The notes: a model not told the origin generated them from the letters alone. A stretch of DNA of 64,000 nt from Bacillota bacterium (GCA_023511455.1 JAIMBJ010000014.1:1949-65948); one strand, 5' to 3'; counted from the first letter of the stretch, positions 1-30,700 are shown. A program made the numbers and translations.

Positions 1-450
1 GCGACGCTGCATCTCCACTGGCAGTTCGTAAAAATCGCCCAGATCAACGTGAGTCTCTGAAAGGCGTTGGTACTCCCGCGCCAGTTCTGCGTTCCACGGC
101 ACCTGCTTGAGCTGTTCTATCAACACCGAGTTGGCAATCCCGCGTGCTTCCTTCACAGTTAGGGCTCTTGTCAGCATCTCTTTCACCCGAGGATGCTGCA
201 CTGTGCGCAAGAGATCGATCAGCGTTGGAATGACCTCAGGGTACGAAAGCCCAGTATTGACCAGTGCGTCTAGCGGCGAGAGTGGTTCTGTTTGCCAGAG
301 AGCGCGTGCCTCTGTTTCATACTGGACAATCTCTCGCACTCTGGGAAACTGCTCCAGCACACGGTCGACCTTTTCGTACTCGCTTTGGCGCAGTTGTTCA
401 TCAAGCGCGAGTTCCAGCATCGGTTCATCTACAATCGGTTCCATCGCCAC
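1..450 (-). CDS. HEAT-repeat protein, putative immunity protein (copy 1; 3' end cut by window edge)
   Basis: Nucleotide-identical to 6480-6929; same N-terminus MAMEPIVDEP. See full copy at 6111-6929. Confidence 0.6.
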   Translation of the reverse strand, partial: MAMEPIVDEPMLELALDEQLRQSEYEKVDRVLEQFPRVREIVQYETEARALWQTEPLSPLDALVNTGLSYPEVIPTLIDLLRTVQHPRVKEMLTRALTVKEARGIANSVLIEQLKQVPWNAELAREYQRLSETHVDLGDFYELPVEMQRR

Positions 451-453
451 ACC

Positions 454-693
454 TCATAGTATGGGCTTGTGGATGCTTCTACCCTGTCGGATGAGGTCTT
501 GCAGTCGTTTATCCAAGACCGTATTGCGTCGTGTGATGAGTACAAAGGTGTGGTTATAATTCTTGCACCACTCTAAATAGTCTTGAAGTTGTTTGGTGTA
601 TCGCAGCTCGCGGACATTCTTTACTTCTTCAAGTGTGCACGCATTTTTATTAACCTCTTCAGGGAACGGGACCCCTTCGATTGAGCAGTGCAA
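454..693 (-). CDS. 79-aa ORF, possible truncated toxin-tip remnant coupled to the HEAT protein (copy 1)
   Basis: Identical to 6933-7172. TTG start without Shine-Dalgarno; its stop lies 3 nt before the HEAT ORF start. No family recognised. Confidence 0.3.
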   Translation of the reverse strand: MHCSIEGVPFPEEVNKNACTLEEVKNVRELRYTKQLQDYLEWCKNYNHTFVLITRRNTVLDKRLQDLIRQGRSIHKPIL

Positions 694-770
694 AACACAT
701 ACGCCGTTAGGAAAGTTAGAAACTACACATGGCTTATATACTCACCGCAGCACGGTTCAAACAGCCAAAT

Positions 771-1073
771 CTAACCGCTTTCGCTATCTGCAGATTCAAC
801 TTTCGCTATAGCTATCAGAATCTGTTGACAAACTTCCTCGTCTCCGAAAAATGAAGGACTCTCTCTACGCCACTCTTCGTTTGGTTCGTAGTAATCAAGG
901 TCGACTGCAAGATCGTTAAGAATGTCCCAGATCTGCTGCTCACCTGGTGCGATCTCATCCTCTCTGGTGTCCCACACCAGCTGCTGAAACCTGTTTATCC
1001 TTTCGGAGCGATTCTTCGGGTTCTCAATCGCTTCCTTGAGCAACCCGATCAGCATCTCCAACTTTGGACTCAT
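771..1073 (-). CDS. 100-aa acidic protein, putative immunity protein for the upstream RHS toxin tip (copy 1)
   Basis: Lies directly downstream of toxin tip 1106-1846. GGAGGGG Shine-Dalgarno 5 nt before the ATG. Identical to 7250-7552. Confidence 0.55.
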   Translation of the reverse strand: MSPKLEMLIGLLKEAIENPKNRSERINRFQQLVWDTREDEIAPGEQQIWDILNDLAVDLDYYEPNEEWRRESPSFFGDEEVCQQILIAIAKVESADSESG

Positions 1074-1105
1074 CCAGCCCCTCCAAGAGAATTTTACCCA
1101 CCAGG

Positions 1106-1846
1106 CTATCTACATCGTACAGGCTGATAGCGCGGACTTAGCTCGCGTGTCACAAAAGTAGTTGTGACCTTACCAGTTACAGGATTACGCGCTACTACAA
1201 GATGTTTTCCACTAGCCATTCCGTGTTCGAGAACGTGGATGATTGTTTTCGTTTTAGGATCCCAGAACTGCCTGCCACGTTCTGTGGCTTTTCGCACCAT
1301 CGCCGGAGTAATCCCGCGTTCGGACATACGTTGCAACGCATGCTTAGAAAAAACAAGACGCGGTGCCAAAGCTGTGGATGTACGCGCACCACCAACTGCT
1401 GTTGCTTGCCTAACAGCGCCCCGCACTCCTTGGGAAGCCGCTGCTTTTGCCGTAGCAGCACCCCCAAACACCATCTCATCCCCTGGAACCACAGAGGAAA
1501 ACCCTGCCAGCAGTAGGGCACCGCCCCACAAAGTCGCATCCCACGCCAGCTGCCATCCCGACGCCTGTCCGCAATCATAACGCCCTGCCGTCGTACCGAA
1601 CCGCTCTGTCAAACCGAACATCAAGTTCTGATCCACCCACTGGCTCAGCCCGCCCATTCCGCCCATATACCAGCGTTTGAGATCTTCCCAAAAGTCTAAG
1701 CCAGAGGGGTCTGCCAGGTTCACGGGGTCGTTGAGACAGTACCGATACAGGTTCGGGTCGCCGGAGGCGATGTCAATCGGGTCTCTCTGCAGCCATCTTG
1801 CGGTGCGCGGGTCGTACTCCCGTGCGCCCGCGTGGCACAGCCCCAC
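1106..1846 (-). CDS. Orphan RHS C-terminal toxin cassette, DUF4258-like tip (copy 1)
   Basis: Carries GAREYDPRTARWLQRDPIDIASGDPNLYRYCLNDPVNLADPSGL, the end of the RHS repeat-associated core. The tip contains FSKHALQRMSERGITPAMV, which resembles DUF4258. The frame is open back to 1879 and closed by TAA at 1880-1882. No ATG or SD. Confidence 0.75.
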   Translation of the reverse strand: MGLCHAGAREYDPRTARWLQRDPIDIASGDPNLYRYCLNDPVNLADPSGLDFWEDLKRWYMGGMGGLSQWVDQNLMFGLTERFGTTAGRYDCGQASGWQLAWDATLWGGALLLAGFSSVVPGDEMVFGGAATAKAAASQGVRGAVRQATAVGGARTSTALAPRLVFSKHALQRMSERGITPAMVRKATERGRQFWDPKTKTIIHVLEHGMASGKHLVVARNPVTGKVTTTFVTRELSPRYQPVRCR

Positions 1847-1983
1847 GGTGGGCAGCCACTCATACCCCGCGGCGGCGTTTTAGTGCTGTCAAGGAGCAGG
1901 CGGGTGTTGCCCCACCTTTACGAGCATTATAGCGGGTGCAGCCGAAGAAAGCAAGGTTGTTCCCTCTACGTCGGGCATCATCG

Positions 1984-2832
1984 TTACGGCAGGTTGGGTT
2001 GCGCTATCAGATATTGCAATGCCTCGCGGAAGGAGGTGAACTCGGCGCTTGGGGTTCCGTCCTCGTGATGGAAGTAGTAGACGCGCGGCTGTTCATCCCC
2101 TTCCCGCGCAACGATGAACCCACCGCCACGCCCTGCTAATACCCAGTAGATGGCTTCTCCAAAGTTAACCTCATACATGGAGGATATGCCGAAAACGTCA
2201 ACGTCGCCGGTTATAAAACCATCACACTGTTTCAAAAGTTCATGGTAGTCGTCTGGTAAAAGAAGCCGACGCCGATTTAGCCACCGCTCACGCTCGGGGG
2301 CATCCATGGGATAAGCCATCTCCAGCACCGGGTGCTGGGATATCCAATCCGCGAGCCATCCACTCATGACAGGAAACAAGCCGGGGGCGGAGACCACCTC
2401 AGGTGATACGGGCGCATCGGGACGCATGGGGTCAGAAAGTAGCTCTACCGAAAGCACCTTTACCTCAACGTCATGGCGTTTCCGAATGCGACGGACGTCT
2501 CTGCTGTATGTAATGCTAAAGAAACGACCATCGACCAGATGGATACGTGCCTGATAAACCGTGTTGCGGCACTCGAATCGCACCACCGCAAGACGTCTCT
2601 CCTCTTCGGGGTGGTGAGGGAAGCGGACAGTAGGCTCATCGGGCGAAGCAGGGTAATAATCCGCTTCGGTACCCAGAATTAGCTGACAGCGTCTGAGGAC
2701 ACGCAGCTGTTCATCCCATATCGCCTGCGCTTCCGGGGATAGATGCTTCCTCACCTCGTCCAGTATCTGTTTATCCAGAGGCGCGATGACTTCTCGCCTA
2801 AAAACGGTAGAAAGCCATGCCTTCAAGGACAT
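1984..2832 (-). CDS. SMI1/KNR4 (SUKH-1)-like immunity protein
   Basis: C-terminal LPDDYHELLKQCDGF...FGEAIYWVLAG...SFREALQYL resembles SUKH. ATG at 2832 (MSLKAW) overlaps the upstream toxin stop by 10 nt. Confidence 0.6.
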   Translation of the reverse strand: MSLKAWLSTVFRREVIAPLDKQILDEVRKHLSPEAQAIWDEQLRVLRRCQLILGTEADYYPASPDEPTVRFPHHPEEERRLAVVRFECRNTVYQARIHLVDGRFFSITYSRDVRRIRKRHDVEVKVLSVELLSDPMRPDAPVSPEVVSAPGLFPVMSGWLADWISQHPVLEMAYPMDAPERERWLNRRRLLLPDDYHELLKQCDGFITGDVDVFGISSMYEVNFGEAIYWVLAGRGGGFIVAREGDEQPRVYYFHHEDGTPSAEFTSFREALQYLIAQPNLP

Positions 2833-3446
2833 TTTCCGTCTCCCAGCACCAGTTTGTTCCACCAGCTGGAGAGCCACCCAGCTGCCATCCCTGCTACTCC
2901 CACCGTCACTGAACTGGGAACCCTGTGTAACTGTTGTCTCCATACGGGATACGCTGGGTTAGCCTCCTTCCAGCGACTCGGAAGGAACTGCCGACGAAAC
3001 GGGTCGTTCTTTGCATGTTCCGCTGCCCACATATACTTGGTATTCAAAGGAGAATCCATAAACCATTTGGGAACCCAGCGATATCGTTGCGGTATCCAGT
3101 GCGACACTTCCACCTTCTCCACGCCGCGCACCCTGCCATAAACGAACACCCGGGCAGGGTCAGGCCGAGACAAACTAGCCAGTCGTGCATTCCGCGCGTA
3201 ACCCAACCAGCCGCTGAGTGCGGTCGTGTGCAGAATACCAGTAACCTCGCCCGCGTTATACCAGCCACTACACCGGTTCACGACGCTATCTACCCCCATC
3301 CATTGACGGGCTTTAGCCGTTAAGCCAAAAGTAAGCGTATCGCCCCAACCGGCGAAAAAATTCGCGGCGTCATCTAGCCAATCCAGTCCCGAAGGGTCTA
3401 CTGTGTTAACAGGATAAAACCTTGCAGAACTTTGCAGCACGGGCAA
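2823..3446 (-). CDS. Orphan polymorphic-toxin tip keeping only the last ~15 aa of the RHS core; unassigned toxin domain
   Basis: Starts ..ARFYPVNTVDPSGLDW and continues into sequence I cannot assign. TTG start with no SD. Followed by the SUKH-like ORF. Confidence 0.5.
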   Translation of the reverse strand: MPVLQSSARFYPVNTVDPSGLDWLDDAANFFAGWGDTLTFGLTAKARQWMGVDSVVNRCSGWYNAGEVTGILHTTALSGWLGYARNARLASLSRPDPARVFVYGRVRGVEKVEVSHWIPQRYRWVPKWFMDSPLNTKYMWAAEHAKNDPFRRQFLPSRWKEANPAYPVWRQQLHRVPSSVTVGVAGMAAGWLSSWWNKLVLGDGKCP

Positions 3447-3459
3447 GATCAGGAAAAGG

Positions 3460-3828
3460 CTAAAACCGCTTTAACCACAGCAAAAAACGCTTCCAAAAAC
3501 CAGCTACACCCCGTGCCTCTGCAGCCTCTCGCCGCTTCCTTTCCCATTCCTGTCTGTTCAAAGCCGCTTTTTCCACTAGAGATAAAATCTCGTGATACTG
3601 CTGTTCTGAAGGATTATACAATCGGCAGCGTAAGACCTCCATTTGGCGCACTAGTAGGGAGACCGGACGCCCATATTTATCCAATACCACCATCTCCTCC
3701 CTGTCACTCGGATCATCACTGTCGTACCACTCGACATAGCTACCCAAACTGTCGAAACCGTGTTCTATAAAATATCCATCATGAATATCGATAAGTCGTA
3801 CTGGAAAGGCAACCTCATGTACAGGCAT
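3460..3828 (-). CDS. 122-aa putative immunity protein
   Basis: ATG lies 3 nt after the stop of toxin tip 3832-4536. Acidic N-terminal half. No family recognised. Confidence 0.5.
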   Translation of the reverse strand: MPVHEVAFPVRLIDIHDGYFIEHGFDSLGSYVEWYDSDDPSDREEMVVLDKYGRPVSLLVRQMEVLRCRLYNPSEQQYHEILSLVEKAALNRQEWERKRREAAEARGVAGFWKRFLLWLKRF

Positions 3829-3831
3829 CGC

Positions 3832-4536
3832 CTACCACCCCTGCCATGGTCTGTGTCTGCCTATGCCCGGTCGTCTATGGTAATGTAGCCATTTCCAGAA
3901 AGGCGCATACCTAGGTGGCGTGTCTTGCCACTTGTGCCAATCTAAGGCGAATATTCGCTTTCCGTCTCGGTAGACATTCATTCCTACGCCACCAGTATGT
4001 TGGTAATCTATCCACTGGAAATTATATCGTCCTATTCTAACACCGTTGGAGGTCGCTACCCCACCTAAGACTCCGCCCATCCCCCCAATCAACGCAGCTC
4101 CTATCGTCTCGCACGGGCGGTAGCAATTTTGCCAGGCAAAAGCCAGCGATACGCCCTGCACCGCAAGGTCACTGCTTGCCCCAGCTAAAGCACCACCAAG
4201 CACTGCACCAGCCGTGCCCCCAATACCAAACGTCCCTGCCAAGCTGGCTCCTGCCACGCCGCCCAGCACGCCCGCAGCGCCGATAACCGCCCCCCGCAAC
4301 CCGCCATGCCAGATGTTCTCGCCGGACACCCAGGCAGTTACTCCACCTACAATACCACCGAGCACCACTCCTGCACCCACACCTGCCAATAGGGGCACAA
4401 ACATGCCGTCGGGGTCAGCAATGTTGACAGGGTTATTCAGGCAGTAGAGGTAGAGGTTGGGATGCCCGCCGGCAACACCAATCGGGTCTCTCTGAAGCCA
4501 TCGTGTGGTGCGCGGGTCATATTCGCGGGCGCCCAC
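3832..4536 (-). CDS. Orphan RHS C-terminal toxin cassette with a glycine-zipper membrane segment and an unassigned W/H/R-rich tip
   Basis: Carries GAREYDPRTTRWLQRDPIGVAGGHPNLYLYCLNNPVNIADPDGM, then a long G/A/V/I-rich stretch, then YNFQWIDYQHTGG..WHKWQ..HYHRRPG. In-frame TAA at 4540-4542 sits just 5' of HVGAREYDP. Confidence 0.7.
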   Translation of the reverse strand: MGAREYDPRTTRWLQRDPIGVAGGHPNLYLYCLNNPVNIADPDGMFVPLLAGVGAGVVLGGIVGGVTAWVSGENIWHGGLRGAVIGAAGVLGGVAGASLAGTFGIGGTAGAVLGGALAGASSDLAVQGVSLAFAWQNCYRPCETIGAALIGGMGGVLGGVATSNGVRIGRYNFQWIDYQHTGGVGMNVYRDGKRIFALDWHKWQDTPPRYAPFWKWLHYHRRPGIGRHRPWQGW

Positions 4537-4620
4537 ATGTTATAAGCATATAGTCCTGTCCTACATAGGGTATGTTGGCTGAGGCATATGCTTGCCATCT
4601 CTATAGCCATTGCCCGCGCT

Positions 4621-5289
4621 TCAAATCTCCTTCTCCAGGCGTAGCTGGGTCAAAGTAAACTGGCGCCATTCATACAGTTGCTGCACTGCCGCCTCCGATG
4701 ACTGCTCCAGCAACGACATCATCCGATTGACACGCTCCGCTATCTCCCCCATCCACGGATAGTTCGGTTCATCTTGGCGCAACTCGGTATACAAGCGAGG
4801 CAAAATCCGCCGCGCAAGACGATAATCGCCAATCAAAATATAAGAATAGGCTTTTACTTCTTGATAGTGAACATCCTTAGGATTTCCACTCTTTTTGTCA
4901 ATCCACCATATCACCTCACTGGGGGTCCGCACCTTATCCAGAAATGGTAACCCGTACTTTTGCATATACCAGTAGATTTCCTGCATCACTTGCTTCTCCT
5001 GCTCGTTATCCTCTGGACGCCACCGCCACCAGATGTCTCTGTCATGTTGAAACCATCCCAATCGCCCACCAATATTCAACACAAAGTGATCACAGGGCAC
5101 ATAGAGTGGCTGAGCGAACACCCATACCGTGAAGGCTTCCCTGTCCAGATAAGAGGTTTGAAAGTAGAAGGCACGAAGAACCATCTCCACTGGGGTGGCG
5201 TATAGAATCGTCGTCGGTTTGTACCTGAAGTTGGGCAATAGAGGTAGGATGTGTTTTCTAAACGCCTTCATCAGAATGCTGGCTTTCAT
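4621..5289 (-). CDS. Putative immunity protein (possibly DUF4304-like)
   Basis: ATG at 5289 (MKASILMKAF) forms an ATGA overlap with the toxin stop at 5286-5288. The family call is from memory of the DUF4304 N-terminal pattern and has low certainty. Confidence 0.55.
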   Translation of the reverse strand: MKASILMKAFRKHILPLLPNFRYKPTTILYATPVEMVLRAFYFQTSYLDREAFTVWVFAQPLYVPCDHFVLNIGGRLGWFQHDRDIWWRWRPEDNEQEKQVMQEIYWYMQKYGLPFLDKVRTPSEVIWWIDKKSGNPKDVHYQEVKAYSYILIGDYRLARRILPRLYTELRQDEPNYPWMGEIAERVNRMMSLLEQSSEAAVQQLYEWRQFTLTQLRLEKEI

Positions 5290-6029
5290 CTGGGGCGTAC
5301 CTCCCGAATAGGAATATTTTCGCAACCTTTGGGGAGATGCCGACGTATCTGCTCAATCCGTTTCGGTGTCAACTGCGCACCTCCTGTCTTCAAATCCCAA
5401 ATCTCCTTCGGCTTATCAAGACGACCTCTAACCGCATCTACCCGTACTGAGCCCCGGGAACCTCTGGGTACTACCACACCGTTCCTATAGGATACCTCAG
5501 CGCGGATTCGTCCACGCGAGATTTGTTGCACCTGCTTTGCGAACTCCGTATGAACACGAGTCCCATGCGCAGCACCACGACCAGAACCTACGATACGCTG
5601 CGCATTATTCGCTGCCTGTTGAACCTGCCTCGCAGCGCGCGCAGAAAATATGAACTCTCCCACGCCCAGCGTAGCCGCTGTAATCAAACACTCACGACCC
5701 ACTCCAGCGAAGAAGTTGCTGGTATCAAAACCAACCTGATCTTTGTAAGCGCCTCCATCCCACAAGCCAAAAGTGAAGACACTGCCAACCGCCGCCAATC
5801 CCGTCTTGAGACCTTCTGACACAACCTCACTGTTGAAGAGGAAAGGTCCTATCCAGATTCCATCCTCTGTCTTCTTGAACCAGTCCTTTCCTCCGTCATC
5901 TGCCATGTTGATGGGGTCATTGCCCGCATACCGATACAGGTTCGGGTCGCCGGAGGCGATGTCAATCGGGTCGCGTTGGAGCCATCTTGCGGTGCGCGGG
6001 TCGTACTCGCGGGCGCCGACATGATACAA
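5286..6029 (-). CDS. Orphan RHS C-terminal toxin cassette, PD-(D/E)xK nuclease-like tip
   Basis: Carries LYHVGAREYDPRTARWLQRDPIDIASGDPNLYRYAGNDPINMAD. The tip has HGTRVHTEF...VRVDAV...IWDLKTGG, a D...D-x-K pattern. The frame is open back to 6110 (RWNGAYGYEYIPATG) and sits directly behind the TAG of the HEAT gene in the same frame. Confidence 0.7.
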   Translation of the reverse strand: MYHVGAREYDPRTARWLQRDPIDIASGDPNLYRYAGNDPINMADDGGKDWFKKTEDGIWIGPFLFNSEVVSEGLKTGLAAVGSVFTFGLWDGGAYKDQVGFDTSNFFAGVGRECLITAATLGVGEFIFSARAARQVQQAANNAQRIVGSGRGAAHGTRVHTEFAKQVQQISRGRIRAEVSYRNGVVVPRGSRGSVRVDAVRGRLDKPKEIWDLKTGGAQLTPKRIEQIRRHLPKGCENIPIREVRPR

Positions 6030-6110
6030 ACCTGTGGCTGGGATGTACTCATACCCGTACGCCCCGTTCCAGCGGGAGGGCTGGCGCGTGGTCTCCGCGT
6101 GAGCGTTCCG

Positions 6111-6929
6111 CTATTTCTTCAAACGCGCCACTACCTTCTCCACCATCTTGCGGAACTCGCCTTGACTACGCTTTGCCATCCGCTCCGCAAACCGTGCCAA
6201 TATCGCCTCCCGTGCCTCCCGCACCTTCAAACGCGCCAACCCACGCGCCGCCTCTAACGCGACGCCATCGTCAAAATCCTGCAACAACTCCAGCAACAAC
6301 TCGCGCAGCCCTTCAGGACGAAAGCGAACCATTGCGCGTAAGATTTGGGTGCGTGCCGAACCGTAGCGTGGGTCGCGCACAATCTCCAACAGGTGGGGCA
6401 GGTCTTCCCGCTGCGCCAGATACCCAATCGCATTCCCAAAAGCGAAAAGCAAACTCTCCCACGGAGCCAGCGTGCGGATGCGACGCTGCATCTCCACTGG
6501 CAGTTCGTAAAAATCGCCCAGATCAACGTGAGTCTCTGAAAGGCGTTGGTACTCCCGCGCCAGTTCTGCGTTCCACGGCACCTGCTTGAGCTGTTCTATC
6601 AACACCGAGTTGGCAATCCCGCGTGCTTCCTTCACAGTTAGGGCTCTTGTCAGCATCTCTTTCACCCGAGGATGCTGCACTGTGCGCAAGAGATCGATCA
6701 GCGTTGGAATGACCTCAGGGTACGAAAGCCCAGTATTGACCAGTGCGTCTAGCGGCGAGAGTGGTTCTGTTTGCCAGAGAGCGCGTGCCTCTGTTTCATA
6801 CTGGACAATCTCTCGCACTCTGGGAAACTGCTCCAGCACACGGTCGACCTTTTCGTACTCGCTTTGGCGCAGTTGTTCATCAAGCGCGAGTTCCAGCATC
6901 GGTTCATCTACAATCGGTTCCATCGCCAC
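6111..6929 (-). CDS. HEAT-repeat protein, putative immunity protein (copy 2, complete)
   Basis: Repeated HEAT/PBS-lyase-like units (LLEIVRDPRYGSARTQILRAM.., DDGVALEAARGLARLK). The more likely start is the ATG at 6923, preceded by GAGGTG. Confidence 0.65.
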   Translation of the reverse strand: MAMEPIVDEPMLELALDEQLRQSEYEKVDRVLEQFPRVREIVQYETEARALWQTEPLSPLDALVNTGLSYPEVIPTLIDLLRTVQHPRVKEMLTRALTVKEARGIANSVLIEQLKQVPWNAELAREYQRLSETHVDLGDFYELPVEMQRRIRTLAPWESLLFAFGNAIGYLAQREDLPHLLEIVRDPRYGSARTQILRAMVRFRPEGLRELLLELLQDFDDGVALEAARGLARLKVREAREAILARFAERMAKRSQGEFRKMVEKVVARLKK

Positions 6930-6932
6930 ACC

Positions 6933-7172
6933 TCATAGTATGGGCTTGTGGATGCTTCTACCCTGTCGGATGAGGTCTTGCAGTCGTTTATCCAAGACCG
7001 TATTGCGTCGTGTGATGAGTACAAAGGTGTGGTTATAATTCTTGCACCACTCTAAATAGTCTTGAAGTTGTTTGGTGTATCGCAGCTCGCGGACATTCTT
7101 TACTTCTTCAAGTGTGCACGCATTTTTATTAACCTCTTCAGGGAACGGGACCCCTTCGATTGAGCAGTGCAA
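6933..7172 (-). CDS. 79-aa ORF, possible truncated toxin-tip remnant (copy 2)
   Basis: Same evidence as 454-693. The open frame extends 5' to a TGA about 60 nt upstream and contains no ATG or GTG. Confidence 0.3.
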   Translation of the reverse strand: MHCSIEGVPFPEEVNKNACTLEEVKNVRELRYTKQLQDYLEWCKNYNHTFVLITRRNTVLDKRLQDLIRQGRSIHKPIL

Positions 7173-7249
7173 AACACATACGCCGTTAGGAAAGTTAGAA
7201 ACTACACATGGCTTATATACTCACCGCAGCACGGTTCAAACAGCCAAAT

Positions 7250-7552
7250 CTAACCGCTTTCGCTATCTGCAGATTCAACTTTCGCTATAGCTATCAGAAT
7301 CTGTTGACAAACTTCCTCGTCTCCGAAAAATGAAGGACTCTCTCTACGCCACTCTTCGTTTGGTTCGTAGTAATCAAGGTCGACTGCAAGATCGTTAAGA
7401 ATGTCCCAGATCTGCTGCTCACCTGGTGCGATCTCATCCTCTCTGGTGTCCCACACCAGCTGCTGAAACCTGTTTATCCTTTCGGAGCGATTCTTCGGGT
7501 TCTCAATCGCTTCCTTGAGCAACCCGATCAGCATCTCCAACTTTGGACTCAT
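7250..7552 (-). CDS. 100-aa putative immunity protein (copy 2)
   Basis: Identical to 771-1073. SD GGAGGGG. Confidence 0.55.
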   Translation of the reverse strand: MSPKLEMLIGLLKEAIENPKNRSERINRFQQLVWDTREDEIAPGEQQIWDILNDLAVDLDYYEPNEEWRRESPSFFGDEEVCQQILIAIAKVESADSESG

Positions 7553-7584
7553 CCAGCCCCTCCAAGAGAATTTTACCCACCAGG

Positions 7585-8459
7585 CTATCTACATCGTACA
7601 GGCTGATAGCGCGGACTTAGCTCGCGTGTCACAAAAGTAGTTGTGACCTTACCAGTTACAGGATTACGCGCTACTACAAGATGTTTTCCACTAGCCATTC
7701 CGTGTTCGAGAACGTGGATGATTGTTTTCGTTTTAGGATCCCAGAACTGCCTGCCACGTTCTGTGGCTTTTCGCACCATCGCCGGAGTAATCCCGCGTTC
7801 GGACATACGTTGCAACGCATGCTTAGAAAAAACAAGACGCGGTGCCAAAGCTGTGGATGTACGCGCACCACCAACTGCTGTTGCTTGCCTAACAGCGCCC
7901 CGCACTCCTTGGGAAGCCGCTGCTTTTGCCGTAGCAGCACCCCCAAACACCATCTCATCCCCTGGAACCACAGAGGAAAACCCTGCCAGCAGTAGGGCAC
8001 CGCCCCACAAAGTCGCATCCCACGCCAGCTGCCATCCCGACGCCTGTCCGCAATCATAACGCCCTGCCGTCGTACCGAACCGCTCTGTCAAACCGAACAT
8101 CAAGTTCTGATCCACCCACTGGCTCAGCCCGCCCATTCCGCCCATATACCAGCGTTTGAGATCTTCCCAAAAGTCTAAGCCAGAGGGGTCTGCCAGGTTC
8201 ACGGGGTCGTTGAGACAGTACCGATACAGGTTCGGGTCGCCGGAGGCGATGTCAATCGGGTCTCTCTGCAGCCATCTTGCGGTGCGCGGGTCATATTCCC
8301 GTGCGCCCACGTGGTACAAGCCGATGGCAGGCGTCCACTCATATCCATAGGCAGCGTTCCAGCGGAAGGGGTTGAAGGTGGTGCCGTGCCCCACGCATCG
8401 TAACTGTAACGGTCGGTGATGTTGCCTGAACTGTCAAGGAGCAAACGGGTGTTGCCGCG
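7585..8459 (-). pseudogene. RHS remnant: about two YD repeats, core end and DUF4258-like toxin tip, with a frameshift (copy 2)
   Basis: GNTRLLLDSSGNITDRYSYDAWG (8395-8459) lies one frame off from GHGTTFNPFRWNAAYGYEWTPAIGLYHVGAREYDP. The shift is at the C-run 8389-8392. An in-frame TGA at 8460-8462 closes the remnant. Confidence 0.75.
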
Positions 8460-8508
8460 TCATCGGGAGAATTATGGCGCGTCCGACCGAGAAAGGGAAG
8501 CTGCTCGC

Positions 8509-9873
8509 TTACCCGAACCGCTCCAGCAACAGCCGAGTAGCACTCTCCTTATCATCGGGGGCGAGTCTGCCCTCGATGACCTCGTTCAAAAGAAACTGCT
8601 TGCACTCGCCCACCTGTTTGCCTGGGGGGATTCCCAGAATCTGCATAATCTCGCGTCCAGTCAGGGGGCTGTCCAGCGACTGCACGTCCTCGCGGGCGGT
8701 CAGCAGTTCGATGCGGCGCTGCAGGGCGTCGATGTCCGCTTTGGGGAAGGCGGGGTTGCTTGCAGCGATGTCTGCCCGCACCAGCGTCAGCAGCTCCTGT
8801 AGCAAGCCGTCGGCATCGCGAATGAGCCGGCGCACCGCTGCATCGCTCCACGAATAGTCGTACTCGCCGGGGCGCATGTGCAGGCGCACCAGCTGCACCA
8901 CCTGCTCCACGATGTCGTTGCTGTAGCGCAGGCGTCGCAATACCTGCCCGGCAATCTGCGCACCTACGTTCTGGTGACCGTAAAAATGCACGCCGCGCTC
9001 GTCGACGGTGCGGGTGAGGGGTTTGCCCACATCGTGCAGTAGCGTCGCCAGACGCAGCACCAGCGAGGCATCCGGCGGCAGGTGCGAAAACGCCACCAGC
9101 GTATGCTCCCACACGTCGTAGAGGTGGTACTGGTTCTGCTCCACCCCGCGCATCCGCGCCAGCTCGGGCGCAAACTGCTCCAGCAAACCGGTCTCCAGCA
9201 GCAGCCACAAGCCCTTCACCGCCTCCGTCGCCTGCAGCAGGCGTGTGAACTCGTCGCGGATGCGCTCCTTGCTGATAATCTGCAGGCGATGCGCGGTCTT
9301 GCAGATGGCGTCGTAGGTGCCCGGCTCGATGTCGAAGCCGAGCTGCGCCGCGAAACGCACCGCCCGCATCGCGCGGAGGGGGTCTTCCTCGAAGGTGACC
9401 ATCGGCTCCAGCGGTGTGCGCAGCAGTCCCGCCTGAAGGTCACTCAATCCCATGCCCGTCAGGTCGAGCAGCTCGCCGGTGTGCAGGTTGCGCATCAGCG
9501 TGTTCACCGTGAGGTCGCGCCGGAAGGCGTCCTCGCGCAGGGTGGCGGGCTGTACCTGCACGGGCTTGCGGCTATCGGCGGAGTAGCTCTCGCGGCGGGC
9601 GGTGACCAGCTCTACCTGCACGCCCTCGATATGCACCATCGCCGTGCCGAAGCGGGGATAGGTGACCGGCAGATGGTCGGTGATGCCCTGTGTGTGCAGC
9701 CAGTGCGCGAGTTCGAGCGCGTCCGCCTCGGTCACGATGTCCACGTCAGGTGGCAGCGGACGACCGAGCAGTTCATCGCGCACGATACCGCCCACCAGGT
9801 ACAGGCGTCCTTCCCACTTCGTGCCGAGCGTGGTCTGACGCAACTTGTCGATAGCAATCAGCAGGTGGCTCAC
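8509..9873 (-). CDS. cca: CCA-adding tRNA nucleotidyltransferase / poly(A) polymerase family with HD domain
   Basis: LYLVGGIVRDELLGRPLPPDVDIVTE head-domain motif, RRD, and a C-terminal HD region (LLHDVGKP). Confidence 0.9.
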   Translation of the reverse strand: MSHLLIAIDKLRQTTLGTKWEGRLYLVGGIVRDELLGRPLPPDVDIVTEADALELAHWLHTQGITDHLPVTYPRFGTAMVHIEGVQVELVTARRESYSADSRKPVQVQPATLREDAFRRDLTVNTLMRNLHTGELLDLTGMGLSDLQAGLLRTPLEPMVTFEEDPLRAMRAVRFAAQLGFDIEPGTYDAICKTAHRLQIISKERIRDEFTRLLQATEAVKGLWLLLETGLLEQFAPELARMRGVEQNQYHLYDVWEHTLVAFSHLPPDASLVLRLATLLHDVGKPLTRTVDERGVHFYGHQNVGAQIAGQVLRRLRYSNDIVEQVVQLVRLHMRPGEYDYSWSDAAVRRLIRDADGLLQELLTLVRADIAASNPAFPKADIDALQRRIELLTAREDVQSLDSPLTGREIMQILGIPPGKQVGECKQFLLNEVIEGRLAPDDKESATRLLLERFG

Positions 9874-10192
9874 ACATCGAGTGTACCACGCTTTTGCGCG
9901 GGGCGAGTATTCATTCCGTGCCCGGTGCGCGTATCGATTCCCATTGCTGAGGCAGAGGGATACGCCAGAACAGCGAAAGTGCTTCTTCTCTTCGTCCCCC
10001 CTCTGGCAGATTCCTTATTTACAGGTTACAATAATCGGTGAGGTCGCAGCCCGTCGTGTGTGAGGATTACCACTGTAGCCGCGGGCTTCAGCCTGCGCTG
10101 GGCGGAACGCACCCTGAGAGGGGCGGCGCTATGGTGTTGGAGAGCAAGACCACAGGCAGGTTGACCTTGAGCCATCCAGAGGGTGAACCAAC

Positions 10193-11287
10193 ATGAAACG
10201 TGAGCGTGCGTTGAAAGCGTTTCAGAGGGAGATGACCGACCGCATCCCGCACTGGGAAATCATCTCCTGTCCGGATGCTATCGAGTACATTACCGGCATA
10301 GACCCCTGGCAGCATCCGCGCCAGGCGCAGAAGGCACTGGTGGAACGCTATGCCCTCGACCTGTACACGCTGCCTCTTGAGGATACCCCTGTGCCGCGCC
10401 CGCCAGACGGCGTGGTATACGAGGATGCCGAGGGACGCAGGACCGTGCGCTGGGGATGGGACCATACCTGGCACTGGGATTGGGGACATCGGTTTCGGTC
10501 GGTAGAAGAAGTGCTGCGCTATCAACCGCTGGAACACTGGGACTACCGCGAGATGGACCCCATCGGGATGGACCTTTCGCCGTCGGAAGACGAGCTGGCA
10601 AAACGTTTTCAGGAGCAGGTCAACCGCGACCGCGCCGCCAATGGTGACCTCTGTCTGGAAATCGGGCACTTTTATAACACCCTGTTCATGTGGCCCCTGC
10701 TCACTTTTGGCTGGGAGCTCTGGCTGGAGGTGGCGGCGTGCTACCCACAGGAGGCAAAGCGCCTGTTGCGTGACTTCGCCGAAATCTCGCGTAAAGTGTT
10801 TCGCGCGTGGGCACAGACGGATGTACAGGTTTTCTCCAGCCACGACGACATCTGCCATCGGCAGGGACCGGTCTTCTCGCCGAAGTGGCTACGCGAGAAT
10901 ATCTATCCCTACTACGAGGAGTTCTGGGGTTACCTGAAAGCGTCGGGCAAGAAGATATTCTTCGTCTCCGATGGCAATGTGGATATGGTGGCGGACGACG
11001 TGCTGGCGTGCGGGGCGGACGGCATCTTCTGCGAAACCTATACCGACTGGAAAGCCTTCGCCCGAAAGCACCCCGACAAGGTGTTGCTGGCAGGTGGCGA
11101 CAACCGCATCATCATGAGCAATGACCGCGAGGCGATCGAGGCGATGGTACGCGAGATGGCGGAGGTAGGGCGTCACATGCCCGGATACTTCTTCTGCGTG
11201 GGCAACCACCTGACGTGGGACCTGCCTCCCGAGGGCGTGAAGGCTTACTTCGACGCTGCCGAGAAATACGGGGTGCGCAGTGTATGA
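10193..11287 (+). CDS. Uroporphyrinogen-decarboxylase (URO-D)-like family protein
   Basis: Length and C-terminal pattern (FFVSDGNVDMV..GADGIF..GGDN) resemble URO-D/MtaA-like TIM-barrel proteins. GAGGGTG SD. Confidence 0.6.
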   Translation: MKRERALKAFQREMTDRIPHWEIISCPDAIEYITGIDPWQHPRQAQKALVERYALDLYTLPLEDTPVPRPPDGVVYEDAEGRRTVRWGWDHTWHWDWGHRFRSVEEVLRYQPLEHWDYREMDPIGMDLSPSEDELAKRFQEQVNRDRAANGDLCLEIGHFYNTLFMWPLLTFGWELWLEVAACYPQEAKRLLRDFAEISRKVFRAWAQTDVQVFSSHDDICHRQGPVFSPKWLRENIYPYYEEFWGYLKASGKKIFFVSDGNVDMVADDVLACGADGIFCETYTDWKAFARKHPDKVLLAGGDNRIIMSNDREAIEAMVREMAEVGRHMPGYFFCVGNHLTWDLPPEGVKAYFDAAEKYGVRSV

Positions 11288-12036
11288 CGAAGGCAGCGAT
11301 ATTCGACATCGACGGCGTGCTGGTAGATTCACCACACGAGCGTGCGTGGGGCGAGACGTTACAAAGACTCATGAACACCCGCTGGGCGGACATCGCTTCT
11401 GACACTCGCTATGCGCCGGGGCGTTATACCTCAGAGGTATATCAACACGTCGTGTCCGGCAAACCCAGGCAGGAGGGAGCGGCTGCGTTGCTGGAGTACT
11501 TCGGCATCCACGACCCCGACGGCAGGCGCACACAGGAGCTGTGCGACCTCAAACAGCAGATGATTGTGGAACTGATCGAACGCGCCGAGTTTACTGCCTT
11601 TGAGGACGGTTTGCGGTTTATCCTCGCGCTGAAGGCGAGAGGAGTGAAACTGGCTGCCGCCTCTTCGTCCAAGAACGCCAATCGGATGCTGGAGCGGGTG
11701 TTCCTGTATCCCTTCTGCGAGAGGCAATGCCTGCAACTGCCCTTTGTCACCGCGCAAACACGCCTGATTGACCTGTTCGACGCCAACGTTTGCGGGCGCG
11801 ACTTTGCGCGGGGTAAGCCGCACCCCGAGATATTCCTCACCGCCGCGGCTCTGCTGGACGTTCCCCCAAACCGGTGCGTTGTTATCGAAGACGCGCCATC
11901 GGGCGTGCAGGCGGCGAAGGCGGGAGGGATGCGCTGTATTGGCGTGGCGCGTAGGGACGATAGCGACTTGCTGCGTGCGGCAGGCGCAGACTGGGTGGTA
12001 ACGAGTCTGGACGAGGTCAATCTCGAGGAGCTGTGA
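11284..12036 (+). CDS. pgmB: Beta-phosphoglucomutase (HAD superfamily)
   Basis: MTKAAIFDIDGVLVDS (DxDG motif) and GKPHPEIFL..IEDAPSGVQAAKAGGM. ATGA overlap with the upstream gene. Paired with GH65. Confidence 0.85.
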   Translation: MTKAAIFDIDGVLVDSPHERAWGETLQRLMNTRWADIASDTRYAPGRYTSEVYQHVVSGKPRQEGAAALLEYFGIHDPDGRRTQELCDLKQQMIVELIERAEFTAFEDGLRFILALKARGVKLAAASSSKNANRMLERVFLYPFCERQCLQLPFVTAQTRLIDLFDANVCGRDFARGKPHPEIFLTAAALLDVPPNRCVVIEDAPSGVQAAKAGGMRCIGVARRDDSDLLRAAGADWVVTSLDEVNLEEL

Positions 12037-14369
12037 GGAGGATGGACGAATACGACTTTATCGACGGCTGGATTATTCGGGAGAAGCAGTACAAACCTGA
12101 AGAAGAGAGCGCAAAAGCCACCGTTTTCGCACTGGCAAACGGCTACATGGGTCTGCGTGGAGCAGGCGAAGAGCTTCCCCCCACCATCCCGGGCGTCAAA
12201 GGATGTTACATCAACGGTATCTATGATACTCCCCGTGGGAAACTCACCGAGCGCGAATTCCCCAACATGCCCGACTGGACGCTCATCCAGTTCTGGGCGG
12301 ACGAGGAGCCTTTCGACCCCGCCAACATGGGTGAGCTGCTGGAATACAGCCGCGAGCTGGACATGCGCGAGGGCGTGATGCGCCGCTCCATCCGCTGGCA
12401 AAGCCCCTCCGGTAAGGTAATCCGTATGGAGAGCGAACGCCTGCTCAGCATGACGCACCGGCATGTGGGGGTTATCCGCTACCGGCTGGTTGCCGAAGAC
12501 CCGGTGCACATCGAACTGCATTCCAGTATCGATGGGGCGGTGAACAACCGCTGGGCGTATCATTTCAAGCGGTTCTCTCGCCAGCAGGATGGCGAGGAGG
12601 ACTATCTGGAAGTGGAAACCTTCGAGCCGGGCTACCATATCGGCGTGATGGCAAGACATGAGGTGCGTACGCCCGCACAGGTGAGCGTGGAGCGGGACGA
12701 CCCCACCGACCGGTGCGTGCAGACGATTTTCAGCGTGCACCTGCAGCCGGGACAGGAGCTCGAGCTGACCAAATGGTGTGCCCTGTACGACAGCCGATTC
12801 AGCAACGGCGACCTGCGCGCGTTATGCCTTGCCGATATCGAGGCAGCGCGCACACTGGGCTACGAGGCGCTGAAAGCGCAGCATGTACGCCGCTGGGAAG
12901 AGCTATGGCAGGCATCCGACGTGCAGATTGAAGGCGACGAAGAGGCGCAGATGGGCATCCGGTTTGCGGTGTTTCACCTGCTCGCCGCCGCACCTTACCA
13001 TGATGACCGCATCAGCATCCCCGCAAGGGGTCTGCAGGGACAGGACTACTACGGTTCTATCTTCTGGGACTGCGAGATATTTGTGCTGCCTCTGTTCATC
13101 TACACCCAGCCAGAGGTCGCGCGAAACATCCTGCGCTATCGCTACCACACGCTGGAAGGCGCGAAGCGCAAGGCGAAGAAACTAGGATTTGAGGGAGCCT
13201 ATTACGCCTGGCAAAGTCAGGAAACCGGGGACGAGCAGTGCGACCTGTACGTGTTCACCAATCCACTCACCGGTGAGCCCATACGCAGCTACTTTGCCGA
13301 CGAGCAGATACATATCTCTGCCGACATCGCCTACGCGATGTGGCAGTATGTGCAGGCAACGGGCGATGAAGGCTTCTGGCTGGATGGCGGCGCGGAGATT
13401 CTGGTGGAAGTGGCACGCTTCTTCCTGTCGCGGGCGACGTGGAATGCCGAGCGCGAGCGCTATGAACTCCGTTCGGTACTCGGTCCCGACGAGTATCATG
13501 AGCGCGTGAACAACAACGCCTATACGAACGCGCTGGCGCAGTTCAGTGTGCAGAAGGCAATCGAGGTGCTGAACCTGTTGCGGGAGAAACATCCCGAGGC
13601 ATACGATGCAATCAAGGTGAAAACCGGTCTCACCGACGGCGAAGTGTCCCGATGGCAACACTTCGTGCAGAGGGTGTACGTGCCTGCCCCCGACCCGCAA
13701 ACGCGCTTGATACCGCAGTTTGACGGCTACTTCGGGTTGCGCGACGAGCCGGTGGAAGAGACCCGCAAGCGGCTGGCACATCCCGACCTGCACCCGGGCG
13801 GACCGCTGGGGCCCTATCAGGAGACGCAGAACATCAAACAGGCAGACGTGGTGATGTTGCTGTACCTGCTGCGCGACCGCTACGATACCGAAACCAAGCG
13901 GGCGAACTGGCGCTACTACGAACCCCGCACGGCACACGACTCCTCGCTCAGCCCGATGGCGTATTCGCTCGTGGCGGCGGATGTGGGCATGGTGGACTGG
14001 GCATACAAGTACTTCCTGTACACCGCGCACATCGACCTGGCGTCCTATGGACCGCACTGGAATCTGGGCATCCACGCGGCATCACTGGGCGGGGCATGGC
14101 AGGCTGTGGTCAACGGTTTCTGCCAGCTGGAGCTGACCGCAGACGGCATCCGGTTTCTCAAGCCGCCGGTCATACCTGCCCACTGGCAAAGTGTGAGGTT
14201 CCGCGTGATGTGGCATGGTCAGCCGGTGCAGGTGCGTGTGGACGGGCAGAGCGTGCAGCTGACCAACGAAGGCACAGGCGACGTTCCCGTGCTGACCCCT
14301 CTGGGCAGAGCAGTGGTCGCGCCCGGCGAAAGCTGGCGTTGGGATTACTCAGGAGGTAGTTCCGACTGA
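12033..14369 (+). CDS. GH65 glycoside phosphorylase (maltose/trehalose/kojibiose phosphorylase family)
   Basis: N-terminal FALANGYMGLRG and central (alpha/alpha)6 signature regions. Classic pairing with beta-PGM. Alternative start ATG at 12042. Confidence 0.9.
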   Translation: MRRMDEYDFIDGWIIREKQYKPEEESAKATVFALANGYMGLRGAGEELPPTIPGVKGCYINGIYDTPRGKLTEREFPNMPDWTLIQFWADEEPFDPANMGELLEYSRELDMREGVMRRSIRWQSPSGKVIRMESERLLSMTHRHVGVIRYRLVAEDPVHIELHSSIDGAVNNRWAYHFKRFSRQQDGEEDYLEVETFEPGYHIGVMARHEVRTPAQVSVERDDPTDRCVQTIFSVHLQPGQELELTKWCALYDSRFSNGDLRALCLADIEAARTLGYEALKAQHVRRWEELWQASDVQIEGDEEAQMGIRFAVFHLLAAAPYHDDRISIPARGLQGQDYYGSIFWDCEIFVLPLFIYTQPEVARNILRYRYHTLEGAKRKAKKLGFEGAYYAWQSQETGDEQCDLYVFTNPLTGEPIRSYFADEQIHISADIAYAMWQYVQATGDEGFWLDGGAEILVEVARFFLSRATWNAERERYELRSVLGPDEYHERVNNNAYTNALAQFSVQKAIEVLNLLREKHPEAYDAIKVKTGLTDGEVSRWQHFVQRVYVPAPDPQTRLIPQFDGYFGLRDEPVEETRKRLAHPDLHPGGPLGPYQETQNIKQADVVMLLYLLRDRYDTETKRANWRYYEPRTAHDSSLSPMAYSLVAADVGMVDWAYKYFLYTAHIDLASYGPHWNLGIHAASLGGAWQAVVNGFCQLELTADGIRFLKPPVIPAHWQSVRFRVMWHGQPVQVRVDGQSVQLTNEGTGDVPVLTPLGRAVVAPGESWRWDYSGGSSD

Positions 14370-24765: not shown

Positions 24766-25043
24766 GTCTACAGGATACACCGTTTGAGGGGCGGTGTCAA
24801 GATTCGCAGCGGATGTACGATAAATCCTCCAGACGCCTCTTGAAAGGCGAGGCTCCTGCCGAACCGTGAAACCAGTCCACACCTGCGACAATGTTGGGAT
24901 TGGGTACGGCTCACCAGGAGGTTCTGTCTCCAATGTCACAGGCTAAAGCCTGCGGCTACATTGTGTGTATTTTCGAACTCCCTCCCAACGACTTGACAGT
25001 GTTGAACGAAAGATGCAAAATAGTCTCGCCATACCGGGAGGTG

Positions 25044-30549: not shown

Positions 30550-30700
30550 GATGAGGCACCCTCCCGCGTATGGTCTCGGAAGCCATCGTTCTTGATGGGG
30601 TAGAGAACTTCCTGTTCGGCGGTTGCGCCGACTCTTTCCTGCACTTCGGCGCTCGCACGAGGTTTTTTTCAAATTTTACGAAAAACCCGCAGGAAAACGC

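What the first reader, a model, noticed from the sequence alone, without database searches (positions are those of the whole stretch)
1..8459. Stand-alone island of orphan RHS toxin tips and immunity genes with no Rhs shell gene
**Cassette layout.** Minus-strand ORFs at 1106-1846, 2823-3446, 3832-4536, 5286-6029 and 7585-8394 all open inside the terminal motif of the RHS repeat-associated core (..GLYHVGAREYDPRTARWLQRDPI..NLYRY..NDPVN.ADPSGL). The 2823-3446 copy keeps only ..YPVNTVDPSGL. Each then diverges into an unrelated C-terminus.

Each is followed within about 0-35 nt by an unrelated small ORF. There is an ATGA overlap at 5286-5289, a 10-nt overlap at 2823-2832 and a 3-nt gap at 3829-3831. 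This is the toxin-tip/immunity layout.

**What is unusual.** No YD-repeat shell exists.
- Upstream of the first cassette only about two YD repeats survive (8395-8459, frameshifted), and the next gene is cca.
- Every toxin frame is closed by an in-frame stop just 5' of the core motif (TAA 1880-1882, TAA 4540-4542, TAG 6111-6113, TGA 8460-8462).
- The toxin frames have only GTG/TTG starts and no SD.
- The immunity ORFs that I checked carry good SD sequences.

The locus therefore reads as a silent toxin-tip library with expressible immunity genes, not as an active Rhs weapon.
Basis: partly seen in the sequence, partly recalled or inferred. Interest (0 to 1): 0.7.

Follow-up and report, generated by a model that had tools for sequence, protein, structure and literature searches.

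The report
Headless array of orphan Rhs toxin–immunity cassettes
Next to the cca gene this bacterium (phylum Armatimonadota) carries a string of left-over Rhs toxin tips, each paired with an immunity gene, but the large delivery-shell gene that normally heads such a string has been deleted; this is a known kind of locus in an unusual, decapitated state.

Summary
Minus-strand ORFs at 7585-8394, 5286-6029 and 3832-4536 open inside the RHS-associated core (TIGR03696, E 7e-18 to 3e-13). ORF 2823-3446 keeps only PVNTVDPSGL. Each is followed by a small ORF with ATG and a Shine-Dalgarno-like site; the toxin frames have neither.

Corrections:
- The "fifth" tip (1106-1846) is an exact copy. Window 1-1813 is 100% identical to 6480-8292, and the repeat runs off the window edge.
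- A further degraded cassette was missed: a Tox-REase-7 fragment (6933-7172) plus a HEAT-repeat immunity gene (6111-6923).

The head is a decayed Rhs remnant (8395-8500) with a 16-nt deletion, directly after cca.

Near-identical metagenome contigs show the same modules in other orders and at a second headless array behind gyrB. All junctions lie in the core, which indicates core-mediated recombination.

No intact shell gene with this core was found in this population. Long rhs genes in related species exist, but every one inspected is broken.

"Silent" is untested. T2 shows dN/dS 0.09, as low as its immunity gene, which argues against long silence.

This is the orphan rhs-CT/rhsI arrangement of Poole et al. 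2011: a new member of a known kind, made unusual by repeated head loss.

The parts
8395..8500 (-). Decayed remnant of the Rhs shell directly after the cca stop codon. It reads ..RGNTRLLLDSSGNITDRYSYDAWG. It carries in-frame stops (TGA 8460-8462) and a 16-nt deletion at about 8390 that shifts the frame into T1.
   Evidence: The junction is 98.7% conserved in contigs L022-L025.
7585..8394 (-). T1: RHS core fragment, then a linker shared with other tips, then a DUF4258 (BECR/RelE-like) toxin domain.
   Evidence: TIGR03696 E 7e-18. DUF4258 E 7e-5, 23.5 bits, just under its 25-bit cut-off. The linker is shared with P0037 and P0152.
7250..7552 (-). I1: candidate immunity gene for T1, 100 aa, with GGAGG 6 nt before its ATG. 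It matches no known family.
6933..7172 (-). X1: left-over C-terminal ~55 aa of a Tox-REase-7 toxin, displaced when the DUF4258+I1 module entered the tip.
   Evidence: Tox-REase-7 E 1.7e-15, profile positions 31-83 of 84. 81% identical to the C-terminus of P0037, which carries the same core and linker as T1.
6111..6923 (-). H1: HEAT-repeat protein, the probable immunity gene of the lost REase-7 toxin. GAGG precedes its ATG at 6923.
   Evidence: HEAT_2 E 4e-8. SD. dN/dS 0.24 against L052.
5286..6110 (-). T2: short Rhs remnant (6030-6110, open from H1's stop codon), then the core, then a tip of unknown family. First start codon is TTG 6029.
   Evidence: TIGR03696 E 3e-13. Tip dN/dS 0.086 against L052. 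No Pfam or PDB match.
4621..5289 (-). I2: candidate immunity gene, 222 aa, with an ATGA overlap with T2. GGGAGG lies 10 nt upstream. Weak DUF4304 match.
   Evidence: dN/dS 0.079.
3832..4536 (-). T3: core fragment cut at ..HVGAREYDP, then a glycine-zipper-rich hydrophobic region and a basic C-terminus. Its family is unknown.
   Evidence: TIGR03696 E 6e-15. In L001 and L021 the same tip heads the array behind gyrB.
3460..3828 (-). I3: candidate immunity gene, 122 aa, 3 nt after T3.
2823..3446 (-). T4: tip whose core is almost wholly deleted; only ..YPVNTVDPSGL remains. A linker (LDWLDDAANFFAGWGDTLTFGLT) shared with many tips is followed by an unknown C-terminal domain.
1984..2832 (-). I4: SUKH/SMI1-like candidate immunity gene, 282 aa, overlapping the end of T4 by 10 nt.
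   Evidence: SMI1_KNR4 E 1e-4 and SUKH_6 E 1.4e-4, both just under their cut-offs.
1847..1955 (-). Second decayed Rhs remnant (..WGNTRLLLDS.. with stops and deletions) ahead of the duplicated T1.
   Evidence: Repeat family D4, 73% identical to 8431-8500..
1..1846 (-). Exact second copy of T1 (1106-1846), I1 (771-1073), X1 (454-693) and the start of H1 (1-444, cut by the window edge).
   Evidence: Window 1-1813 is 100% identical to 6480-8292.

Best explanation
This is an array of displaced ("orphan") rhs C-terminal toxin / immunity modules whose head gene has been eroded away.

**How it arose.** Incoming tip+immunity modules carry about 60-140 nt of the conserved Rhs core. They enter by homologous recombination in that core and push earlier tips downstream. 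The same repeats then shuffle, duplicate and delete modules. Deletions have since removed the YD-repeat shell, leaving about 100 nt of broken remnant next to cca.

**How it works now (inferred).** The immunity genes have their own ATG and Shine-Dalgarno sites and are made. They would protect the cell against Rhs toxins fired by relatives. The tips lack normal initiation signals and any delivery part, so they are not deployed from this locus. They stay intact either because they are young or because they are occasionally used: recombined behind a working shell, or expressed at a trickle.

**Shown:** the anatomy, the recombination junctions, the asymmetry in translation signals and the head erosion.

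**Inferred:** expression state, toxicity and neutralisation.
For: - **Core matches.** TIGR03696 core fragments open three distinct tips, and a fourth keeps the PxxxxDPxGL end.
- **Known toxin and immunity families.** DUF4258, Tox-REase-7, SUKH and HEAT.
- **Signal asymmetry.** 0 of 5 toxin frames have ATG or an SD, against 4 of 5 immunity ORFs. The species background is 14 of 18 genes with an SD and 17 of 18 with ATG.
- **Recombination at the core.** Near-identical contigs (about 99%) carry the same modules in other orders. The cca|remnant junction is followed by a different tip in L022-L025. The I2|core junction is followed by T2, T6, T1 or T3 depending on the contig. L007 joins H1 directly to T3. 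Window 1-4539 is the array behind gyrB in L001.
- **Displacement inside a tip.** X1 is the tail of a REase-7 tip that shares T1's core and linker.
- **Head erosion.** There is a 16-nt deletion plus stops at 8395-8500. The window's species (L001) and another species (L021) have different deletion end points behind gyrB.
- **A toxin lost while its immunity gene is kept.** The REase-7 tip is destroyed in two different ways, in the window and in L052, while H1 stays intact at dN/dS 0.24.
- **Composition.** The island has lower G+C (0.46-0.55) than its flank (0.60-0.66).
Against: - T2's tip is as constrained as its immunity gene (dN/dS 0.086 against 0.079). A tip that was never expressed should show relaxed constraint.
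- No RNA or protein data exist.
- A simple sigma-70 scan found no promoter on the minus strand for any gene, immunity genes included.
- A shell gene elsewhere in the genome could not be excluded.
- The 1.8-kb perfect repeat and the cca-T1 join could not be checked against reads.
Confidence: 0.62

Rival explanations
1. Working reserve. The genome has an intact rhs gene elsewhere with the same core. These cassettes are a live stock of tips that are swapped onto it by core recombination or duplication, as shown for the Salmonella orphan.
For: - The tips are intact and under purifying selection.
- The cores are kept about 90% identical at the protein level across hundreds of tips.
- Modules demonstrably move between loci.
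- Long Rhs proteins with 79-81% identical cores exist in relatives.
- A 1.8-kb direct repeat, the kind of duplication that precedes orphan activation, is present.
Against: - A 23-nt core scan of JGI metagenomes and GTDB species genomes found no open shell frame in this population. The only one (L043) belongs to another species.
- Both arrays seen in this species are headless.
- Every long rhs of this clade that I could inspect is broken.
Confidence: 0.25
2. Addiction modules. The tips are translated at low level from internal non-ATG starts and act with their immunity proteins as type II toxin-antitoxin-like pairs. That stabilises the island, as reported for Salmonella Rhs-CT (PMC7043789).
For: - Purifying selection on tips without a shell.
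- In-frame GTG/TTG codons lie at or just before the core.
- T1 carries DUF4258, a RelE/ParE-superfamily domain also found in TA systems.
- Precedent for CTG-initiated internal expression.
Against: - No SD before any tip, in a species that uses SD in about 78% of genes.
- No promoter-like site on the minus strand.
- Truncation points upstream of the core vary from 5 to 193 aa among homologues, with no conserved N-terminus.
- Degraded tips are common (X1, T4, P0013, P0014).
Confidence: 0.15
3. Partly an assembly product. The perfect 1813-nt repeat and the cca-T1 join come from collapsing or mis-joining two arrays (behind cca and behind gyrB) at their shared cores.
For: - Window 1-4539 matches the gyrB-adjacent array of L001 at 99.8%.
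- No fetched contig shows cca-remnant followed by T1, or I2 followed by T3.
- Several contigs break exactly at these repeats (L026, L029, L021).
Against: - Every junction type in the window has a counterpart in independent contigs. Only the downstream tip differs, which is the expected outcome of real core recombination.
- L023 places T1 in the cca array.
- The orphan nature of each cassette does not depend on their order.
Confidence: 0.12

Closest known systems
Orphan rhs-CT/rhsI modules downstream of rhs genes (Jackson et al. 2009, C-terminal displacement model, cited from my own knowledge; Poole et al. 2011, PMC3150448)
   Same: - Each ORF begins inside the core ending in PxxxxDPxGL, then diverges.
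- A small immunity ORF follows each tip.
- The tips lack initiation signals while the immunity genes have them.
- The same modules occur at other positions in related strains.
   Different: - No full-length rhs heads the array. The head is reduced to about 100 nt of broken remnant next to a housekeeping gene.
- A second array in the same species is likewise headless.
- The phylum is Armatimonadota, not Proteobacteria.
Salmonella Typhimurium rhs orphan (activation by duplication and recombination, Koskiniemi et al. 2014, from my own knowledge; internal expression as a TA module, PMC7043789)
   Same: - An intact orphan tip and immunity pair sharing core homology.
- A direct repeat able to drive duplication or recombination.
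   Different: - Salmonella keeps an intact main rhs next to the orphan.
- Internal promoters and start codons were mapped there; nothing comparable is shown here.
Immunity-gene arrays left by serial effector displacement (Vibrio cholerae T6SS, PMC5361080) and acquired interbacterial defence islands of Bacteroidales (Ross et al. 2019, from my own knowledge)
   Same: - Immunity genes are retained after their toxin is lost: H1 with only the X1 fragment here, and with a different wreck in L052.
- The island is variable between strains.
   Different: - Most cassettes here still carry intact toxin tips.
- None of the ten island ORFs scanned matches a recombinase family.
- The shuffling repeat is the Rhs core itself.

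Membership tests
Orphan rhs-CT/rhsI module array | The ORF opens inside the RHS-associated core (TIGR03696) and carries the PxxxxDPxGL boundary motif. | tested here: met
   T1 64.9 bits, T3 55.5 bits and T2 50.2 bits, against a 32.5-bit cut-off. T4 keeps only PVNTVDPSGL. T2's motif is the variant PINMADDGG.
Orphan rhs-CT/rhsI module array | Unrelated, polymorphic C-terminal toxin domains follow the motif. | tested here: met
   DUF4258 in T1 and a Tox-REase-7 fragment in X1. T2, T3 and T4 are mutually unrelated and match no family. Toxicity itself was not tested.
Orphan rhs-CT/rhsI module array | A small cognate immunity ORF with its own initiation signals lies immediately downstream. | tested here: met
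   Spacing runs from a 10-nt overlap to a 32-nt gap. ATG plus an SD-like site precede I1, H1, I2 and I4. The SUKH and HEAT matches are weak. Neutralisation cannot be tested with these tools.
Orphan rhs-CT/rhsI module array | The toxin fragment lacks translation initiation signals. | tested here: met
   0 of 5 toxin frames have ATG or an SD. The species background is 17 of 18 genes with ATG and 14 of 18 with an SD.
Orphan rhs-CT/rhsI module array | The array lies downstream of a full-length rhs gene. | tested here: not met
   Only a broken remnant (8395-8500) lies between cca and T1. The gyrB array of the same species is in the same state.
Full-length Rhs / YD-repeat toxin | A YD-repeat shell of roughly 1000 aa or more, with an N-terminal delivery or secretion part, in one reading frame with the core. 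| tested here: not met
   No such ORF lies in 1-12000. The only ORF over 1100 aa in the window (25885-30672) has no RHS match.
Internally expressed Rhs-CT toxin-antitoxin module (PMC7043789) | A promoter and a usable start codon inside the core region that drive tip translation. | tested here: inconclusive
   In-frame GTG/TTG codons exist, but without an SD. No sigma-70-like site lies on the minus strand, and the scan covers only that promoter type. Transcript data are needed.
Poly-immunity / acquired interbacterial defence island | Immunity genes kept without their toxins, together with a dedicated recombinase. | tested here: not met
   Only H1 lacks an intact toxin. The other cassettes keep full tips. 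None of the ten island ORFs scanned matches a recombinase family.

The most novel reading that the evidence does not exclude
In this clade of thermophilic Armatimonadota the Rhs shell genes have been lost or pseudogenised again and again. Examples are a deletion next to cca, different deletions next to gyrB in two species, truncation next to mreC, a TGG-to-TAG nonsense codon, an IS-like insertion and a frameshift. Meanwhile the core-plus-tip and immunity cassettes stay intact, stay under purifying selection and keep being reshuffled at fixed chromosomal sites.

If no intact shell exists in these genomes, the cassettes must have a function that does not need the shell. One possibility is self-maintaining toxin-immunity addiction pairs that also confer broad immunity. 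A less likely one is loading in trans into a separately encoded shell.
Probability: 0.12. Interest if true: 0.7.

Novelty: new member of a known kind. Interest (0 to 1): 0.33.

Why it matters
Orphan toxin/immunity arrays are usually discussed as appendages of a working weapon. Here two arrays in one species, and several loci in relatives, have lost the weapon but kept and reshuffled the cassettes.

That makes a natural test of what maintains orphan modules: immunity alone, occasional re-arming, or addiction. The many near-identical metagenome contigs already display recombinants, so population-level rates of module exchange could be measured.

The finding also documents Rhs polymorphic-toxin biology in Armatimonadota. 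A full-text literature search for "Fervidibacter" together with "Rhs" returned no paper.

Tried and rejected
- **Whole-genome search for a shell.** The window's own genome is not in the GTDB species set. The 23-mer scan hit only one related MAG.
- **Exact-protein look-ups.** The sequence left of position 1 could not be recovered.
- **Tip identities.** PDB sequence searches for T2, T3 and T4 found nothing. Pfam at E up to 10 added nothing. AlphaFold2 models were too poor to search with: T2 tip pLDDT 41 and T4 tip pLDDT 61, so no fold search was run. hhalign of the T2 C-terminus against Tox-REase-7 was negative (probability 0.4%). My impression that T2 carries a PD-(D/E)xK-like motif (VRVDAV..IWDLK) therefore remains unsupported.
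- **A promoter upstream of T1/T1'.** A TATAAT-like word lies in the 70-nt repeat ahead of T1/T1'. I rejected it as a promoter because the repeat aligns with decayed Rhs coding sequence (..YYxxDxLGxTRLLLD..), and the scan found no minus-strand promoter.
- **Short core+tip proteins as a family with a defined N-terminus.** Rejected. The length upstream of the YDP motif ranges from 5 to 193 aa among 108 homologues.
- **Read-through from H1 into T2.** They share a frame, separated only by H1's TAG, in both the window and L052. I considered this and left it as probable coincidence, because no test was possible.
- **tRNA and Rfam scans of the window.** Both were empty.
Full report
**1. What is in the sequence**

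Read on the minus strand, the order of features is as follows.

| Coordinates | Feature | Evidence |
|---|---|---|
| 8509-9873 | cca | PolyA_pol, RNA-binding and HD domains |
| 8395-8500 | broken Rhs remnant | see section 3 |
| 7585-8394 | T1 | TIGR03696 E 7e-18; DUF4258 E 7e-5 |
| 7250-7552 | I1 | no family |
| 6933-7172 | X1 | Tox-REase-7, E 1.7e-15, profile positions 31-83 of 84 only |
| 6111-6923 | H1 | HEAT_2 E 4e-8 |
| 5286-6029 | T2 | core E 3e-13 |
| 4621-5289 | I2 | weak DUF4304 |
| 3832-4536 | T3 | core E 6e-15 |
| 3460-3828 | I3 | no family |
| 2823-3446 | T4 | only ..PVNTVDPSGL of the core is left |
| 1984-2832 | I4 | SUKH-like, E 1e-4 |

After I4 comes an exact repeat of T1-I1-X1-H1, which runs off the left edge of the window.

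Window 1-1813 is 100% identical to 6480-8292.

A 23-nt core word occurs four times in the window, against none in 100 shuffles. The island has lower G+C (0.46-0.55) than the flank (0.60-0.66).

**2. Translation signals**

- I1 has GGAGG 6 nt before its ATG.
- H1 has GAGG before ATG 6923.
- I2 has GGGAGG 10 nt before ATG 5289.
- I4 has GGGAG before ATG 2832.
- I3 has only GGGTGG.
- T1-T4 and X1 have no SD-like word and only GTG or TTG as the first in-frame start.

As a background I took 18 ordinary genes of the same species from contigs L001 and L022. Of these, 14 have GGAG/GAGG/AGGA upstream and 17 start with ATG. The asymmetry is therefore real.

A simple sigma-70 scan found nothing on the minus strand. 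That says little in this phylum.

**3. The head**

The 106 nt between cca and T1 read ..RGNTRLLLDSSGNITDRYSYDAWG.., which is the last YD repeat before the core. This stretch carries stops. A second, more decayed copy of the same remnant lies ahead of the duplicated T1 (1847-1955).

**4. Relatives**

Exact-protein look-ups brought in about 30 metagenome contigs that are roughly 99% identical to the window.

- **A second headless array.** Window 1-4539 is the array that sits directly after gyrB in L001 (99.8% identical). It is headed by a longer but also broken Rhs remnant: YD repeats, then a frameshift, then ..YYVLDGLGHTRLLLD...
- **A different tip after the same junction.** In those strains cca has the same remnant junction (98.7% identical), but a different tip follows it (275 aa, DUF3238). 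After that come two T2-I2 copies, a T6 tip and a Tox-REase-9 tip.
- **Variable partners at the I2|core junction.** This junction is conserved, yet it is followed by T2, T6, T1 or, in the window, T3.
- **A direct H1-T3 join.** L007 joins H1 straight to T3.

Every rearrangement break lies in the core. This is direct evidence for core-mediated homologous recombination. It also means that the window's particular order could be either a genuine recombinant or a mis-join. I could not check it against reads.

The closest named genome is an Armatimonadota MAG (L021). It has the same gyrB-remnant-T3 arrangement, cut off by the contig end.

**5. Displacement inside a tip**

P0037 (Armatimonadetes bacterium JP3_11) has T1's core and linker, followed by a complete Tox-REase-7 domain. 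Its last 70 residues are 81% identical to X1. The DUF4258+I1 module therefore entered an older REase-7/H1 cassette through the shared linker.

In L052 the same REase-7 tip is wrecked by a different internal deletion, while H1 is intact. This is a clean case of a toxin being lost while its immunity gene is kept.

**6. Is there a shell anywhere?**

- **Word-indexed search with the remnant plus core.** The best 120 hits were all 85-266 aa long.
- **Exhaustive search with the core alone.** It found 1728 cluster representatives at E ≤ 1e-10. Only 11 of the best 150 exceed 700 aa. The closest are 808 aa (81% identical) and 1162 aa (79% identical). Clustering at 50% identity inflates the count of distinct tips, so this ratio is only indicative.
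- **The 23-mer DNA scan.** It found 13 metagenome loci and one genome locus. All had 140 aa or fewer open upstream of the core, except L043.
- **L043-type genes belong to other species.** They share no DNA with the window other than the cores.
- **Every L043-type gene that I inspected is damaged:**
  - L045 is split into 790 + 430 aa, with about 170 aa missing.
  - L047 carries an IS-like insertion plus a frameshift.
  - L049 and L050 have TGG changed to TAG at codon 579, in two separate samples.
  - L051 has a frameshift.
  - L046 is cut down to 377 aa next to mreC.

- **The head has been eroded independently.** L001 and L021 (gyrB dS 0.69) have different deletion end points behind gyrB.

An intact shell elsewhere in the window's own genome remains possible. 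I could not search that genome.

**7. Selection**

| Comparison | Region | dN/dS | Note |
|---|---|---|---|
| Window vs L052 (same H1-T2-I2 order) | H1 | 0.24 | |
| Window vs L052 | T2 tip | 0.086 | dS 1.24 |
| Window vs L052 | I2 | 0.079 | |
| L001 vs L021 | remnant | 0.115 | |
| L001 vs L021 | core | 0.058 | |
| Window vs L052 | X1 fragment (dead) | 0.089 | 30 codons |

The tips are not drifting freely. However, the obviously dead X1 fragment also shows a low value. Low dN/dS therefore shows that these sequences were constrained until recently. It does not show that they work in their present place. Because tips are swapped at the cores, how long any tip has sat as an orphan is unknown.

Among 108 homologues the length upstream of the YDP motif ranges from 5 to 193 aa. 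This fits random truncation and not a defined protein start.

**8. Comparison with what is known**

The layout, the missing initiation signals on the toxin fragments, the expressible immunity genes and the "repertoire of immunity / reservoir of toxins" reading are all described for orphan cdiA-CT and rhs-CT modules in PMC3150448. Internal expression of Salmonella Rhs-CT as toxin-antitoxin pairs is described in PMC7043789. DUF4258 is listed among BECR-fold RelE/ParE-superfamily toxin families, with target unknown (PMC11980606).

What differs here is the absence of the head gene at two loci of one species, and the repeated breakage of shells in related species.

**9. Verdict**

The finding is a genuine orphan Rhs tip/immunity array in a decapitated state. 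I file it as a new member of a known kind.

The claims "silent" and "stand-alone in the genome" are unproven.

Interest is moderate to low. It would rise if a complete genome showed no intact shell while the cassettes stayed under selection.

Noticed in passing
window 1-1813 and 6480-8292: A perfect direct repeat of at least 1813 nt at 6479-nt spacing, running off the left edge of the window. It could drive deletion or amplification of the T2-I2-T3-I3-T4-I4 block. It could also be an assembly effect.
   Followed up: partly
window 6030-6113; L052 1425-1520: T2's reading frame is the same frame as H1 and is separated from it only by H1's own stop codon. This holds in both the window and the diverged relative L052, despite a 19-codon length difference between them. 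It is probably coincidence; read-through was not testable.
   Followed up: partly
L001 6214-7242; L021 5865-6455: A second headless Rhs array sits directly behind gyrB in the same species and in another Armatimonadota species. The two have different deletion end points in the shell remnant.
   Followed up: yes
L046 9727-11134; L049 2038-4867: A third Rhs site lies behind mreB-mreC in related species. One strain has an rhs with a TGG-to-TAG nonsense codon at position 579. Another has only a 377-aa truncated gene.
   Followed up: partly
L047 11381-12316 (minus strand): A 311-aa ORF, probably the transposase of an insertion sequence, interrupts the rhs gene between ..RQNPPTVP and SSVQLGSH... I did not run it against any family library.
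   Followed up: no
L022 2836-5767: Two tandem copies of the T2-I2 cassette lie in the cca array of a metagenome strain.
   Followed up: no
window 7900-8178 and 3320-3386; P0037, P0152, P0078-P0080: Two linker segments recur between the core and quite different toxin domains (DUF4258, Tox-REase-7, Tox-REase-9, HNH). They are ..WYMGGMGGLSQWVDQNLMFGLTERFG.. and ..LDDAANFFAGWGDTLTFGLT... They seem to act as second recombination handles inside the tips. Neither matched a Pfam pre-toxin family.
   Followed up: partly
window 10193-14369, 22843-24939, 25885-30672, 50017-53136: The flank is rich in carbohydrate-active genes: GH65 phosphorylase, a pectate-lyase-like protein, DUF5107+TPR, and a 1595-aa ORF with only a marginal Glyco_hydro_42 match. 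There are no secretion-system, VgrG or PAAR hits among the ORFs I scanned.
   Followed up: no
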